20,702 bases of DNA, taken from contig CBDANQ010000050.1 in NCBI GenBank assembly GCA_965197725.1, forward strand, positions 1 to 20,702, given 5' to 3'. Position numbers: made by a program. This stretch comes from Longimicrobiales bacterium. GTDB taxonomy: Bacteria; Gemmatimonadota; Gemmatimonadetes; Longimicrobiales; Gaopeijiaceae. Positions 9,001 to 20,702 of this stretch are shown here, piece by piece. The first letter of the stretch is position 1; the number at the start of each line of letters is the position of its first letter.

Positions 9001-12000
9001 AAGCTCCGGCGCCCCAACCTGCGACGCCCCAGCCCCGCGAGCCCCAACCCGTGACGACCCAGCCCGGCGCCCTCCCCCCGACCGCCACGATCGACCGTTC
9101 GGCGCTCGATGCGGGCAACCGTGCGTTCGCTCGGAGCGACTGGCTTGCGGCCACGACCGCCTACGAGCGCATGCAGGCGCCTGCGGACGCGTCGAGCGAG
9201 TACGCGCGGGAGTACGCGAGCGCGATGGTCCAGCGGGGCGTCGCGCACATCAATCGTGGCGAGTACGGGGGCGCGCTCGAGGCACTCGAGGCGGCGGTGG
9301 GCTTCGACGATCCCGGCGTCGAGGCGTACTTGCGCCTAGGCCAGGCTCAGTGCGCGGTCGGGCGTGGCGAAGAAGGCCGAGGCAGCTTCGCCACGCTCGG
9401 AAGAGAGGCAAATCGCATGCCGCCGGCTGAGCGGCCCTTCGTGAACTCGATGATCGAGTACCACAAGGGTCTCTGCAGCGAAGGGGACTTCGACCGGGCG
9501 GAGGCGACAATGGACCGCGTGCGCACCGGCGCCGCCGCCATCCGGGAATACGAGGGCTTCCTGGAGCTCGCCGGTGACGTCTCACCGGTCTCGCCGGAGC
9601 TGCAGGCGGCGATCGACGACGCGACGCGGCGAATCGCGGCCGTGCGGCAACGCATCCGCGGCTAGCCGCGATCAACACCTCGCTCTCGAATCGACTCGGA
9701 AACGCCTCGGCGAGTCCGGCGATCGGGTCTGGACCTGAGCGGCCTGGTGCCCGAGAGTGCGAGCCATGAGACACACAGCCGCCATCGTCGTAGCCTTCGT
9801 TCTCCTACTACCGTCCTGGCCGGACGCGGATGGGCATGAGATCCCCGCGGACGTCACCGTGCAAGCGTTCGTCGCGCCGGAGGGCAGCACGCTGCGAGTG
9901 CTGGTACGCACTCCGCTCTTCGCGATGCGTGAATTCGATTTCCCGGAGCGGGCCCCGGGCTACCTACAGATCGCGGAGTCCGACTCGCTGATCCAGGATG
10001 CCGCGATCCAGTGGATCGCGGAGTACATCCGGCTGTACGAAGGCGCGGAGGAATTGCCCCAGCTCGAGCTCGTCGCGGCTCGGATCTCTTCGCCCAACGA
10101 CGCCTCGTTCGCCAGCTATGAAACCGCGCTGGCGAACGTGAGATCACCGCCGCTGGGCGAAGCCGTGGAGCTACCGCCGGCGCAGGCGTTGCTCGATGTG
10201 CTCTTCGAGGTCCCGATCGCATCCGATCAGTCCGAATTCTCGATCGATCCGCAGTTGGCCCAGCTCGGGCTGCGTACCGTCACGGTGCTGCGATTCGTGC
10301 CTGCGGGAAGGCCGGAGCGCGTCTATCAGTACACGGGCACTCCGGGGCGCGTCCGACTCGACCCGCGTTGGTTCCAGGCCGCGTTCCGATTCGTGGTTCT
10401 CGGCTTCGAGCACATTCTCGACGGTCTCGACCACCTCCTCTTCCTCTTCTGCTTGGTCGTGCCCTTCCGGAGCTTCTGGGCGCTCGTGCCGATCGTCACG
10501 TCGTTCACCGTGGCGCATTCGATCACGCTGATCGCCGCCGCGCTCGGCCTGGCGCCTAACGCACTCTGGTTTCCGCCTCTCATCGAGACCCTCATTGCGC
10601 TCTCGATCGTGTTCATGGCGTTCGAGAACATCCTCGGTGCGACGCTCAATCGCCGGTGGCTCATCGCGTTCGGCTTCGGACTGATCCACGGATTCGGTTT
10701 CTCGTTCGCGCTCTCCGAGTCGTTGCAGTTCGCGGGCGCGCACCTGTTGACCTCGCTCTTCTCCTTCAACATCGGCGTCGAGCTGGGTCAGCTAGTCGTG
10801 CTCGCCATCACCGTTCCGGTCCTGGCTCTACTCTTCTGGAAGGTTCTGCCGGAAGTGGGAGGCACGGTCGTGCTCTCAGCTATGCTAGCCCACACGGGGT
10901 GGCACTGGATGACCGAGCGAGGGGGAGGGCTCTTGCGCTACGACTTCCGCGTGCCCGCGCTCGATGCCGCGTTCGGCGCGACACTCCTTCGATGGATGAT
11001 GCTCCTGCTCATCGTGGGTGGGGCAGCCTGGCTGTTGCGCCTCTCCTTCGCCTGGTTGCACGCCCGCCGGCCGGCCGACGTGCTGTAGCACAGGGCCGCG
11101 GCCGGGCTCCCTAGAACTCGCGCCAGTCGCGCTCCAGAACCTTCTGGTACACCTCGCTCCTCGCGAAGAGCTCGACGATGTCTGGTTCGAGCGCGCCTTC
11201 TTCAGCCTCCCATCGGAGGATCTGCAGTGCCTTCTCCACCGGGATCGCCTTCTTGTAGGGGCGGTCGGACGCGGTGAGCGCGTCGAAGATGTCGCACACC
11301 GTCATGATGCGGGTCTCGAGCGAAAGCTGTTCACGCGAAACCCCGTCGGGGTACCCTTTGCCGTTCAGCTTCTCGTGATGGCCACGTACGATCTCCGCGA
11401 TGCGGGAGAGCTCGTCGGTCCAAGGGATGTTGACGAGAAAGTTGAACGAATGCATGACATGCGACTCGATCTCCGCCTCGTCGAGGGTACCCCGTTTGAT
11501 GGAGAGATAGTGTAGCTCGTCGGGCGTGATGTAGGTCCGCTCGTTGCCGTCAGGATCAGTGAACGCCCGCTGGGCGATTTCGCCTAGAACACCGGCCGCC
11601 TCCTCGTCCAGGACCCGCGGGATGTTGGCCTCCCGGACCGCCTCGCGGTATTGGCCCAGGGTGTCGAGATCTTCTGCCAACTTCGCTTCGATTGCCGCGA
11701 CCTGCTCGGCTGCGCCCTCCGGGCCCTTTGCTTGCAGCACATCTGTCTTGGCGACCGCCGCGTCGGCTTCGAGCGTCTTTTTGATGAGATCGAAACGGCC
11801 GTTGACATGCGCTCCCATCAGGGGAGGCAACTTCTCCTCCTTCACCAACGTGGCCTCGCGCACCCCGATCTTGCCGAAATCGTGCAGGAGACCCGCGTAG
11901 CGGAGCTGCTTCATCTCTTCGGGCGTGAAGCTTACGTCCGCGAACGGTCCCTCGGTCTCCTGGCTGATCAGCGCCGCGGTGTCACAGGTGAGTTCGGTCA

Positions 12001-18000: not shown

Positions 18001-20702
18001 GCGGTTCACGATCTCATCCAACTCGTCGTCCGAGCGGGTGGGGTCGTGGTGGAAGAAGAGCAGCTTCTTGACCTCTCCTTCCTCGGCCAGTCGTACCGAC
18101 TGGTTGAACGTCGAGTGTCCCCAACCGATACGGGTCGGGTACTCGTCGTCGGTATACATCGAATCGTGGATGAGCAGGTCAGCACCACGCACGAACTCGA
18201 CGAGCCGCTCGTACCAGCCGTCCTCCACCTCGTACATGTCGCCCTCGATCTCGTCGTCGGGGACGAAGCAGAGGACCTTGCCACCTACCTCGATACGGTA
18301 AGCGATGGCGTACGAAGGGTGCTTCACCCTCATGGTGCGCAGGGTCGCGCCCGCCACCTCAAGGGTGCCCTCGTTGAGGTGATCGAACGACATCGTCGCG
18401 GCGACTACGCTGAACGGAACGGGGAAGTAGATCGGTCCCATCTGACCTGCGAAGAGGCTCCGCACGTCGATGTTGTTCTGCCGGGGCCCGACGATCTTCA
18501 GGTCGATCTCGGGATTGTACAGCGGGGCGAAGAACGGGAAGCCCTGGATGTGGTCCCAATGGAAGTGCGTCAAGAAGATGTGGTGGAATTCGCCACCGTT
18601 CTCGATCAAGTCCAGACCGAGCTCTCGCAGACCGGTACCAGCGTCGAAGATCAAGCGTTGTTCGCCATGTCGAACCTCGAATGACGTGGTATTGCCGCCA
18701 TAACGCGCCGTCTGAGGGCCGGGGCTCGGAATGGAGCCACGCGTTCCCCAACAGCGTGTGGTGACAGCGGCAACCGTGCCGGCGGCCTGCGGGGCCGACG
18801 GCGACACGTCGGTCGCGGGATCCAATAGCTACGTTCTCCCGGAGTTCGAGGGGTGCGCGGACAGGTCGGCACCCTCACCAATGTACATGCCAACTGGGAG
18901 AGATCGCGAGGATTTCTGCCCCGAGCCCTTGGAGAATTTGCCGGTGCCCCTCCCTTCCCACTCCCCTTCACGCGCTCCTACATTGGGGGTCCCCTGTGGC
19001 AGGGAAACGCCGTAGCAGCCTTCCAACAGCCCCCGGAGGCGACGAACCGTGTTTGAGCGCTCGCATGAATGGTCCAGAGAGGAAGTCATCGCCTTGCTCC
19101 AACGGGTCGATCTCTTCGAGGGTCTCCCCGACGACGACCTGAACAGCATTGCGGCGATCGTCGATGGCCACACGATCGAACCCGGTGAGTTCCTCTTCGA
19201 GGAGGGCGAGCCTGGTGACGCCTTCTACATCGTCTTTCAGGGCGCGATCGAGATCTCGAAGGCGCGTTCGGACGGGACCGAAGAAAAGCTTGCCGTCCGC
19301 CGGAGGGGCGACGGCTTCGGTGAAATGGCGCTTCTGAACGACGCCCCTCGTTCGGCGACTGCCAGAGCTGCGGAACGGACGCAGTTGGTCAGAGTCGCGC
19401 GCGATGACTTCCAGGAGCTCCTCGGTGGGGATTCGCTCGCGCTGCGCATGATGCGTGCGCTTTCGAAGGCGCTGCGTGCGCTCAGCGTTCGCTTCGCGAG
19501 CGCGGACAGGAAGCAGGACAGTGGCGGGGACGTGCGCGCGGACGCGTTCGCCGTCAGTCGTGTGATGCAAGCGGGCTTGTTGCCCCACGTTGCGCCCAAG
19601 GTGGACGGGCACGATGTCGCGGCCGGAACGACCACCGAGGAAACCGGGCGCGGTGCTTCAGTTTGGGACTGGATCGAGCTCGCGGACGGCCGCACCGCGC
19701 TGCTGAGCGTCGACGTGACTCAGGACGGCTTTCCACCGGCGCATCACCTGGGCACGTCCCGGGCCGTCGTGCGGGCGGTGGCGGCGGCGACCTCGTCGGT
19801 CGCCGACCTACTCCGAGGCTCGAACGAGGCGCTCGCTTCAGCCGGCGTGGACGGCCTGGATCAATTTATCCATATGGGTGTCCTGGTGGTGGACGCGGAC
19901 GGCCTGGAGTGGGGGAGCGCCGGAAAGGTTCGCGGAGGGCTCATTCGGCGGGACGGTAGCTTCGAGCAATTAGGCGCTCAGGGGCCGCCGCTTGGCATGA
20001 TGGGCGGATTTCAGTACAACGTGCAGAGCTTCTCCATGGACGCGGGCGACACCGCCTTCGTCCTCTCGCACGGATCACAAGGCTTGTTCCTCGGAGCTGC
20101 CGACCTGCTCGCGCAGCTCCATGGGAAGCCCGCGGGCGAAATCGTGACTTCGCTCCACAAGGCGATCCGCAAGGCACACGGTGATGAACGGAGCGAGACG
20201 TCGGTGCTCTACGTGAGGAAGAACTAGCCGCTGTAGCCGCCCGTCTACTACGGGCTGCTCGGGGAGTGAGAAAGATGGCAGTGACAGAAAAAGACGTCCG
20301 CAAAGCGCTCAAGGCGGTCAAGGATCCGGAGCTCGGGCTGGATCTGGTGGTGCTCGGGTTGATCTACGACATCGAGATCGAGGATGCCGAGGTCAGAGCC
20401 ACTATCTCGCTCACGTCTCCGTTCTGCCCGGTGGCGGGTCAGATCGTCGAGGACGTGAAAACGGCGATCGAGGGGGTCGATGGCGTCGACGACGTGGAAG
20501 TGGAGCTCACCTTCGATCCCCCCTGGACGCCGGAGCGGATCGCGCCGCTCATCAGGGCTTCACTCGGACTTTGAAAAGGGACCCATGGCGCCGTTCACCC
20601 AAGACAAGCTGAAACAGAAGGTTCACGAAGGCTACGTCGCCGAGTCCTCTGAGGAGATGACGGAGGGTATCGGAACGCGTTGGCGGTTCAGCTCACCGTG
20701 CA

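What a model noticed while it worked through the whole genome (the two positions that open the first line are those of the whole stretch)
11111..18825. Exported caspase-like protease in a five-gene cyclic-nucleotide signalling operon, two copies
An operon joins an MBL-fold hydrolase (putative phosphodiesterase), a caspase-family (C14)-DUF4384 protease with an N-terminal signal-like segment, a CHASE2 adenylate cyclase, an exported DUF928-like protein and a GAF-HD-GYP phosphodiesterase. A second copy lies at C38:1984-10204. It ties extracytoplasmic caspase-type proteolysis to cyclic-nucleotide synthesis and breakdown in Gemmatimonadota.
Evidence so far: Of 46 loci of the protease in GTDB genomes (all Gemmatimonadota, call 33), 35 show the full five-gene order, 10 are cut by contig ends and 1 differs. 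The His-Cys dyad motifs (GHGSQ; DNCN, DKCN or DSCH) are kept in the motif lists of call 35 and in both copies here. 17 of 61 family genomes hold the protease. A cNMP-SpoIIE gene or a second cytoplasmic C14 gene often flanks the operon. DUF928 weak hit E 1e-4. Paper searches 31, 38 and 195 found no such operon.
(Added by a program. Inside this text positions count along the whole contig: contig position 1 is position 1 of the stretch shown here. "Call 12" and the like, gene names such as g00115 and contig names such as C1 are that model's own, and its searches are not shown. The text may have been shortened before it was handed on; [...] marks where a part breaks off. The agent that wrote the report below was given it as the finding of a first reader that could run no searches.)

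Follow-up and report, generated by a model that had tools for sequence, protein, structure and literature searches.

The report
Exported caspase, MtxA-like partner, CHASE2 cyclase
A group of uncultured bacteria keeps an exported caspase-like protease, an exported partner protein and a membrane sensor that makes cyclic AMP together as one gene set, and natural deletions point to one short stretch of the partner as the likely cutting site, which gives a concrete test of how this little-understood sensor type is switched.

Summary
The five-gene unit is real: 35 of 46 loci show the full order, 10 are cut by contig ends, 1 differs. The core is three genes: an exported metacaspase-type C14-DUF4384 protease (His113/Cys170 invariant), a CHASE2 adenylate cyclase, and an exported protein built like MtxA of magnetotactic bacteria. 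The MBL and HD-GYP genes are a movable pair. It is a variant of the published mtx cluster (MtxA plus CHASE2 cyclase, function unknown). The same trio, with a C14 or CHAT protease, occurs in Alphaproteobacteria and cyanobacteria, and this scan has noted it before. New here: the partner's linker motif RQGMIRP (97% pairwise identity) survives, with one change, in one genome that lost the cyclase but kept the proteases, and is gone in two genomes where no C14 was found, so it tracks the protease. Likely mechanism (inferred): the protease cuts the partner at an Arg and this switches cAMP synthesis. Corrections: the flanking second C14 looks exported, not cytoplasmic; the window's cyclase has a frameshift and a premature stop seen in two run assemblies of one sample, so it is probably really broken. 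No binding or activity was shown.

The parts
17917..18825 (-). MBL-fold hydrolase (WGTRGS...YGGNT type, RNase Z-like); putative cyclic-nucleotide phosphodiesterase; cytoplasmic
   Evidence: Pfam Lactamase_B_2 E 9e-16; HxHxDH in 48 of 49 homologue rows, the miss being a cut gene; nearest solved structures are RNase Z; far below the cut-off of NCBIfam's cyclic-nucleotide phosphodiesterase model (35.9 vs 400 bits)
16031..17914 (-). Exported metacaspase-type protease, 627 aa: signal segment, caspase fold (27-313), small beta-barrel (316-383), alpha/beta domain, DUF4384 Ig-like domain (480-627)
   Evidence: Pfam C14 and DUF4384; model pTM 0.82; best fold match metacaspase-4, Z 25.3, rmsd 3.1 over 254 residues
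17861..17914 (-). Signal-peptide-like segment of the protease (residues 1-18)
   Evidence: Own heuristic, not SignalP: 46 of 46 pass; cytoplasmic controls 0 of 47, 0 of 41, 0 of 39
17384..17578 (-). Catalytic stretch: His113, acidic loop DEDDGLDE, Asp168, Cys170, and invariant Thr176-Arg177 at the start of a low-confidence loop (candidate self-cleavage site)
   Evidence: All invariant in 46 of 46 except Asp125; pLDDT <50 at 173-187; aligned to fungal and plant metacaspases
13739..15977 (-). CHASE2 adenylate cyclase (TM, CHASE2, 2-3 further TM, class III cyclase, TPR); broken in this copy by an extra base at 15573 and a premature stop at 13817-13819; intact in the C38 copy
   Evidence: Pfam; comparison with G002; reading across the stop; run contigs; catalytic D, K, D, N, R invariant in 30 of 30 intact homologues
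12742..13689 (-). Exported MtxA-like partner: signal segment, N-terminal beta domain (FecR-N/retention-module-like), helix, linker, FnIII domain, TPR-like helices
   Evidence: Model pTM 0.82; MtxA C-terminal domain 4Z29 Z 10.3, rmsd 4.0 over 162 residues, and 5IX9 Z 11.2, rmsd 2.0 over 72 residues for the N-domain; profile match to MtxA over 22-228, E 0.011; signal heuristic 44 of 51
13294..13314 (-). Linker motif RQGMIRP of the partner (candidate protease recognition site)
   Evidence: Mean pairwise identity 0.97 against 0.48-0.54 in the flanking domains; 36 of 37 locus copies exact; pLDDT <50 at 115-124
11111..12745 (-). GAF + HD-GYP phosphodiesterase, 544 aa; 9-base in-frame deletion near 11474 relative to relatives
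   Evidence: Pfam GAF and HD_5; HD, HHE, GYP, RPYK motifs present; deletion
19049..20227 (+). Divergent cNMP-binding + SpoIIE-like gene; candidate cAMP effector, phosphatase half poorly conserved
   Evidence: Pfam; directly divergent in 25 of 40 loci with enough upstream DNA; FGE...PRSA motif in 37 of 39

Best explanation
An mtx-type envelope signalling module with its own off-switches. Shown: three genes (exported C14 protease, CHASE2 adenylate cyclase, exported MtxA-like partner) are inherited together, with intact catalytic residues in relatives, usually flanked by an MBL hydrolase, a GAF-HD-GYP protein and a cNMP-binding protein. Inferred: the protease is Arg-specific, activates itself by cutting after Arg177, and cuts the partner in its RQGMIRP linker. 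This separates the N-terminal beta domain from the FnIII-TPR part and changes what the CHASE2 domain binds, so cAMP synthesis is switched. cAMP is read by cNMP-binding proteins (the divergent neighbour; a cNMP-GGDEF protein elsewhere in the genome), the MBL enzyme removes cAMP and the HD-GYP enzyme removes c-di-GMP. In this genome both copies are decaying, with complementary lesions.
For: Co-occurrence: protease in 16 of 151 genomes of the order, full-scoring partner in the same 16, CHASE2 gene adjacent in 15 of those 16. Same trio with different clan CD proteases in other phyla: Azospirillum (partner-DUF4384 fusion, CHASE2 cyclase, C14), Sphingobium and Niveispirillum (TPR-CHAT), G054, Nostoc plasmid. 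An Arg-ending motif sits at the same linker in these partners (GAVR, GAAR, FVLR, FAMR, GGSR; TTVR in MtxA), and hhalign puts GAVR on GMIR. The motif stays as REGMIRP in G014, which keeps both C14 genes but has no match to the cyclase, and is lost in G267 and G373, where neither was found. Acidic pocket residues of metacaspases are invariant. MtxA is a two-part monomer with a flexible, trypsin-sensitive linker (PMC4439547, passages).
Against: G014 shows that protease and partner can persist without the cyclase. The second Cys of metacaspases is Ala or Pro in 46 of 46; its loss lowers activity in AtMC9 and TbMCA2 (PMC5756287, passage). The second Arg of the motif is followed by Pro, which usually blocks cleavage (recalled), leaving the first Arg. 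The natural deletions are 1 and 2 genomes, related and incomplete, and motif decay may lag gene loss. After removing the shared signal, partner distances track CHASE2 (0.51) more than the protease (0.37), which favours a receptor contact. G351 has C14-DUF4384 paralogues with no CHASE2 neighbour. Deleting mtxA gave no phenotype in Magnetospirillum. Alphaproteobacterial partners align only weakly (probability 32%).
Confidence: 0.42

Rival explanations
1. The partner is an uncut co-receptor: RQGMIRP docks on the CHASE2 domain or holds the protease as an inhibitor or adaptor, and the protease acts on other envelope proteins. cAMP reports partner availability or controls expression of the unit.
For: Partner and CHASE2 genes are adjacent in nearly every phylum examined, also FecR-type partners with no protease; residual co-variation is highest for partner-CHASE2; Pro follows the second Arg.
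Against: The motif persists in G014 without the cyclase and is lost where no C14 is found.
Confidence: 0.27
2. Protease plus partner is primarily an envelope-processing device, like LapG cutting behind the LapA retention module; the cyclic-nucleotide genes are an accessory layer that regulates it from inside.
For: G014 lost MBL, cyclase and HD-GYP cleanly and kept the three exported proteins; its closest relatives have the full unit. The partner's N-domain matches a cell-surface anchoring domain (5IX9) and weakly retention_LapA (E 0.0015). TpsA/TpsB genes flank the alphaproteobacterial versions.
Against: No adhesin or secretion gene was noted beside the Gemmatimonadota loci examined; the partner is only about 310 aa; 35 of the 36 uncut loci keep the cyclase.
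Confidence: 0.18
3. An anti-phage or damage-sensing system in which the exported caspase senses attack and cyclic nucleotides trigger a defence or death response, as proposed for periplasmic TPR-CHAT DdvA.
For: Patchy presence (16 of 151); DdvA precedent (PMC11506125, passages); DUF4384 also occurs in some Csx30 proteins (bioRxiv 2022.08.17.504292, passage).
Against: Fixed chromosomal position beside the same housekeeping genes in most loci, two signal-removing enzymes, no effector gene seen. PADLOC was not searched.
Confidence: 0.08
4. Loose clustering of signalling genes with no direct link between protease and cyclase.
For: MBL + HD-GYP also sit by a different CHASE2 cyclase with a FecR gene and no caspase (L157); G351 paralogues stand alone.
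Against: 16 of 16 co-occurrence, tight spacing, recurrence of the trio with unrelated-architecture proteases in several phyla, and a partner-DUF4384 fusion.
Confidence: 0.05

Closest known systems
mtx cluster of magnetotactic bacteria: MtxA (MGR_0208, PDB 4Z29) followed by a CHASE2 adenylate cyclase (PMC4439547, PMC5088516)
   Same: Exported protein of about 310 aa with N-domain, flexible linker, Ig-like and TPR domains next to a CHASE2 cyclase; function unknown
   Different: About 13% identity; non-magnetotactic host not tested; the passages read name no protease (I recall a C14 gene in the original cluster table, Richter 2007, which is not held and was not checked); here MBL, HD-GYP and cNMP-binding genes are added
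CHASE2 receptors with FecR-domain partners: Sinorhizobium meliloti cyaK/cyaD1 region (PMC5498481), Burkholderia BiofilmReg operon (PMC5192318)
   Same: CHASE2 receptor encoded beside an exported protein with a FecR-like N-domain
   Different: Partner has a full FecR domain, not FnIII-TPR; no caspase gene in the loci viewed
Type I/II metacaspases (Yca1, AtMC4, TbMCA2) and orthocaspase MaOC1
   Same: Fold, His-Cys dyad, acidic pocket and acidic loop; Arg just after the catalytic Cys loop as in self-processing orthocaspases (position recalled)
   Different: Signal segment, three extra C-terminal domains, second Cys replaced by Ala/Pro
Myxococcus xanthus DdvA (periplasmic TPR-CHAT anti-sigma, PDB 8ROT, PMC11506125)
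   Same: Caspase-fold domain outside the cytoplasm proposed to start a signal by cutting a flexible linker
   Different: One fused protein, ECF sigma output, defence island; here separate proteins and cyclase output
LapG/LapD/LapA (recalled)
   Same: Periplasmic cysteine protease, cyclic-nucleotide control, retention-module-like domain followed by a helix and a cut site
   Different: LapG is another fold, the substrate is a giant adhesin, and the signal runs inside-out

Membership tests
Peptidase C14 (metacaspase-type) | Caspase fold with His-Cys dyad | tested here: met
   Pfam 60.7 bits vs cut-off 21.4; Z 25.3 to metacaspase-4; H113 and C170 in 46 of 46
Peptidase C14 (metacaspase-type) | Acidic pocket residues for Arg/Lys | tested here: met
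   D56 and D168 invariant and aligned to the Asp of fungal and plant metacaspases; their role is recalled
Peptidase C14 (metacaspase-type) | Second Cys of the specificity pocket | tested here: not met
   Ala in 43, Pro in 3 of 46
Peptidase C14 (metacaspase-type) | Proteolytic activity, calcium dependence | not testable with these tools
   Needs assay
MtxA family / mtx cluster | Signal peptide, N-domain, Ig-like plus TPR C-terminal module | tested here: met
MtxA family / mtx cluster | Match to Pfam MtxA_IG-like or MtxA_C | tested here: not met
   0 of 60 members match these models at E<=0.05; so MtxA-like, not an MtxA orthologue
MtxA family / mtx cluster | Adjacent CHASE2 adenylate cyclase gene | tested here: met
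DUF928 (PF06051) | Score over the curated cut-off of 26 bits | tested here: not met
   22.9 bits for the C38 copy, no hit for the window copy; homology to a Nostoc DUF928-like protein is likely (hhalign 84%)
Class III adenylate cyclase | Two metal Asp, substrate Lys, transition-state Asn and Arg | tested here: met
   Invariant in 30 of 30 intact homologues; residue roles recalled; the window copy is broken
MBL-type cyclic-nucleotide phosphodiesterase | HxHxDH metal motif | tested here: met
   48 of 49 rows
MBL-type cyclic-nucleotide phosphodiesterase | Match to a characterised phosphodiesterase family | tested here: not met
   NF041851 35.9 bits vs cut-off 400; RNase Z models also far below cut-off
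HD-GYP phosphodiesterase | HD, HHE, GYP and RPYK motifs | tested here: met
   Present in the window protein and most complete homologues; substrate not testable
Known anti-phage systems | Match to PADLOC models | not tested
   No PADLOC search was run

The most novel reading that the evidence does not exclude
CHASE2 receptors are sensors of extracytoplasmic proteolysis: an exported clan CD protease (C14 or CHAT) cuts an MtxA/DUF928-type partner at a conserved Arg, and the product is the long-sought CHASE2 ligand. This would be a caspase-initiated receptor pathway shared by several bacterial phyla, here packaged with its own cAMP and c-di-GMP off-switches.
Probability: 0.3. Interest if true: 0.85.

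Novelty: new variant of a known kind. Interest (0 to 1): 0.52.

Why it matters
What CHASE2 domains sense was stated as unknown in the passage read (PMC5192318), MtxA has a structure but no function, and exported bacterial caspases have been counted but not explained (PMC3501461). This family supplies a compact, highly conserved set with a named candidate cut site and natural deletion variants, so three purified proteins and a cyclase reporter could test all three questions. The gain is limited because the pair MtxA + CHASE2 cyclase is in print, this scan has noted the three-part core at least eight times in other genomes, the hosts are uncultured, and both copies in this genome are damaged.

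Tried and rejected
No solved CHASE2 relative by sequence. No RNA holder listed. Richter 2007 not held, so my recollection of a caspase gene in the Magnetospirillum cluster is unchecked. Paper searches: CHASE2+caspase (10 papers, none read describes this operon), DUF928 (19), CHASE2+FecR (28), DUF4384 (29), MtxA (51), mtx/caspase/cyclase (57), CHASE2+'CHAT domain' (91, zero), Magnetospirillum/mtxA/caspase (93), CHASE2+periplasmic+protease+adenylate cyclase (113, only the MtxA paper), DdvA (137). The library lacks most subscription papers; Table S2 of PMC3501461 (metacaspase operons) was not opened and may list such clusters. The metagenome scan returned four short loci that I did not analyse. 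The representative search was swamped by FnIII repeat proteins. Distance correlations are dominated by shared descent and are only a hint. Rejected: 'second C14 is cytoplasmic'; 'lesions are assembly errors'; 'fixed five-gene block'; 'specific to Gemmatimonadota'; lipoprotein or Tat export of the main protease and partner (0 motif hits).
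Full report
Observation. The window holds five co-directional minus-strand genes with operon-like spacing: MBL hydrolase 17917-18825, C14-DUF4384 protease 16031-17914, CHASE2 cyclase 13739-15977, an exported 310-315 aa protein 12742-13689 and GAF-HD-GYP 11111-12745. A second copy lies on C38, 41-60% identical. Of 46 GTDB loci of the protease, all titled Gemmatimonadota, 35 show the full order, 10 are cut by contig ends and 1 (L083) differs. These loci were found with short exact patterns, so they are close relatives only.

State of the two copies. Against G002 (93% identical DNA) the window's cyclase has one extra base at 15573, and its HD-GYP gene lacks 9 bases in frame near 11474. 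The cyclase also has a stop at 13817-13819, 25 codons before the conserved end. A contig of run X1 spans the stretch with no difference, and a contig of run X2 covers 13112-18055 with no difference; relatives in runs X3 and X6 lack the extra base and carry the 9 bases. X1 and X2 are one sample at depth 3-4 and may be the source, so this is not independent of the assembly, but it argues against a random error. On C38 the MBL, protease and cyclase are open, while the partner, HD-GYP and second C14 are frameshifted; I did not lay runs on C38. The lesions are complementary between copies.

The protease. It has a metacaspase fold (Z 25.3, rmsd 3.1 over 254 residues), then a small beta-barrel, an alpha/beta domain and DUF4384. 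In 46 of 46 sequences His113, Cys170, Asp56, Asp136, Asp148, Asp149, Asp168, Thr176 and Arg177 are invariant. The acidic residues align with those of fungal and plant metacaspases, which suggests Arg/Lys specificity (recalled). Arg177 lies in a low-confidence loop; orthocaspase MaOC1 needs self-cleavage for activity (PMC5756287, passages). The second Cys is Ala or Pro, which counts against full activity. A simple signal-peptide rule of my own passes 46 of 46 proteases and 44 of 51 partners and none of 127 cytoplasmic controls. Exported bacterial caspases as such are known (PMC3501461, passages). Similar C14-DUF4384 proteins cluster in other phyla and on Nostoc plasmids.

The fourth gene. Pfam names nothing in the window copy; DUF928 is below cut-off. 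The model shows a beta N-domain, a helix, a disordered linker, an FnIII domain and TPR-like helices. The only match spanning both C-terminal domains is MtxA (4Z29), and the family profile aligns to MtxA over residues 22-228 (E 0.011); the Atlas also lists MtxA-bearing clusters among look-alikes. The N-domain resembles a cell-surface anchoring domain (5IX9). In print, mtxA is followed by a CHASE2 adenylate cyclase, has a signal peptide and a flexible trypsin-sensitive linker, and its deletion had no phenotype (PMC4439547, passages; PMC5088516, passage). So this locus works like the mtx cluster, though the protein fails the Pfam MtxA models.

What travels together. In 151 genomes of the order, the protease is in 16, the full-scoring partner in the same 16, and a CHASE2 gene is adjacent in 15 of them; the sixteenth is split over short contigs. 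All three families sampled carry it. Sixteen other genomes have CHASE2 proteins of other types; of four viewed, two are followed by an M48 peptidase lipoprotein, one sits with FecR, MBL and HD-GYP genes, and one has neither. In L146 and L147 protease-cyclase-partner form the unit and MBL + HD-GYP are a separate divergent pair. A 41% identical MBL follows a cyclase with a FecR neighbour in Ensifer. Across 251 genomes of the phylum full-length partners were found only in this order, but G054 has CHASE2 cyclase, a homologous partner (hhalign 97%) and an exported TPR-CHAT protein. Plasmids of Niveispirillum and Sphingobium carry TPR-CHAT, CHASE2 cyclase and a weakly similar partner; Azospirillum has a partner-DUF4384 fusion, CHASE2 cyclase and a C14 protein; a Nostoc plasmid has TPR-CHAT, CHAT-CHASE2 and a DUF928-like gene with a C14-DUF4384 gene about 6 kb away. 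These were picked by following hits, not sampled blind; CHASE2 cyclases with FecR partners and no protease were also seen. Kin are not independent, so none of these counts is a statistical test.

The linker motif. RQGMIRP has 0.97 mean pairwise identity against 0.48-0.54 around it. It is exact in 36 of 37 locus copies, in 120 of 120 top hits (a set biased to close relatives) and in 13 of 14 further loci. The exception among the 37 is L083: protease and partner are directly adjacent, MBL, cyclase and HD-GYP are gone without remnant, and the motif reads REGMIRP. G014 (95% complete), which shows this layout, has two C14 genes and no match to the cyclase alignment; the nearest protease relatives have the full unit. 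G267 and G373 (97%, 94% complete) have a lone partner without the motif, and neither C14 nor this cyclase was found in them. The motif thus tracks the protease in the three informative cases. Distant partners have an Arg-ending motif at the same linker. Against this, residual distance correlation is higher for partner-CHASE2 (0.51) than partner-protease (0.37).

Cytoplasmic side. The cyclase keeps all catalytic residues in 30 of 30 intact homologues, with the Lys that favours ATP (rule recalled). The MBL keeps its metal motif but matches no characterised phosphodiesterase family. The HD-GYP motifs are intact; the genome has GGDEF proteins, one fused to a cNMP-binding domain, which offers a route from cAMP to c-di-GMP (inference). 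The divergent cNMP-SpoIIE-like gene is adjacent in 25 of 40 loci and keeps its nucleotide-binding motif, while its phosphatase half is poorly conserved. The second C14, convergent in 13 of 46 loci, has signal-like starts and a conserved TRG[IL]GVV linker (by eye).

Mechanism and verdict. Best reading (0.42): the exported protease cuts the MtxA-like partner at its linker Arg, which switches the CHASE2 cyclase; MBL and HD-GYP reset the signals. Rivals are an uncut co-receptor (0.27), an envelope-processing pair with accessory signalling (0.18), defence (0.08; DdvA precedent, PMC11506125, passages) and loose clustering (0.05). Ten paper searches found no description of the trio, but the library is partial, and I recall, without a check, a C14 gene in the original mtx table. 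Eight earlier notes of this scan describe the same core in other genomes; I had reached the MtxA reading before seeing them, and they are not independent support. Verdict: real, a new variant of a known but unexplained kind; interest 0.52.

Noticed in passing
window:4649-9665: Ser/Thr signalling cluster: PP2C phosphatase, FHA protein, small exported protein, kinase with PEGA domain, TPR lipoprotein-like gene. It lies next to the operon in several relatives (L065, L069, L078).
   Followed up: no
L156:6919-10712; L158:4562-8289: Another class of CHASE2 cyclase (about 950 aa) is directly followed by an M48 peptidase lipoprotein: a second pairing of CHASE2 with an exported protease.
   Followed up: partly
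L148:1217-8408: G351 has a paralogous C14-DUF4384 gene behind an exported TPR-C14 gene and a FadL-like outer-membrane gene, with no CHASE2 neighbour; a lone partner gene with intact motif is at L150:7945-9264.
   Followed up: partly
L164:6875-8008: Azospirillum protein fusing the partner-like region to DUF4384, the domain fused to the protease here; suggests DUF4384 brings protease and partner together.
   Followed up: partly
L001:1-1570 and L051:16964-18709: Second exported C14 family with a C-terminal caspase domain and conserved TRG[IL]GVV linker, a further candidate Arg cut site; frameshifted on C38.
   Followed up: partly
G000:C58:79735-80550: cNMP-binding + GGDEF protein with intact GGEEF, a candidate cAMP-controlled diguanylate cyclase.
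   Followed up: no
L001:1605-2174 and L001:10610-11107: A GGDEF-like gene without the usual active-site motif lies between the C38 HD-GYP gene and the second C14; a transposase-like ORF (by eye) lies just upstream of the C38 MBL gene.
   Followed up: no
L051, L057-L060, L073, L080, L081, L088, L089: Several kb separate the cNMP-SpoIIE gene from the MBL gene in these loci; the inserted genes were not identified.
   Followed up: no
window:17861-17914: The end of the protease signal segment is unusually conserved (PLLAFG in 34 of 46), which may mean an uncut anchor or a functional new N-terminus.
   Followed up: no
window:1-3361; 3535-4575; 9757-11088; 20266-20574: Ordinary neighbours: xanthine-dehydrogenase-type molybdoprotein subunits and an MscS-like channel (by eye), HupE/UreJ protein and Fe-S assembly protein.
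   Followed up: no
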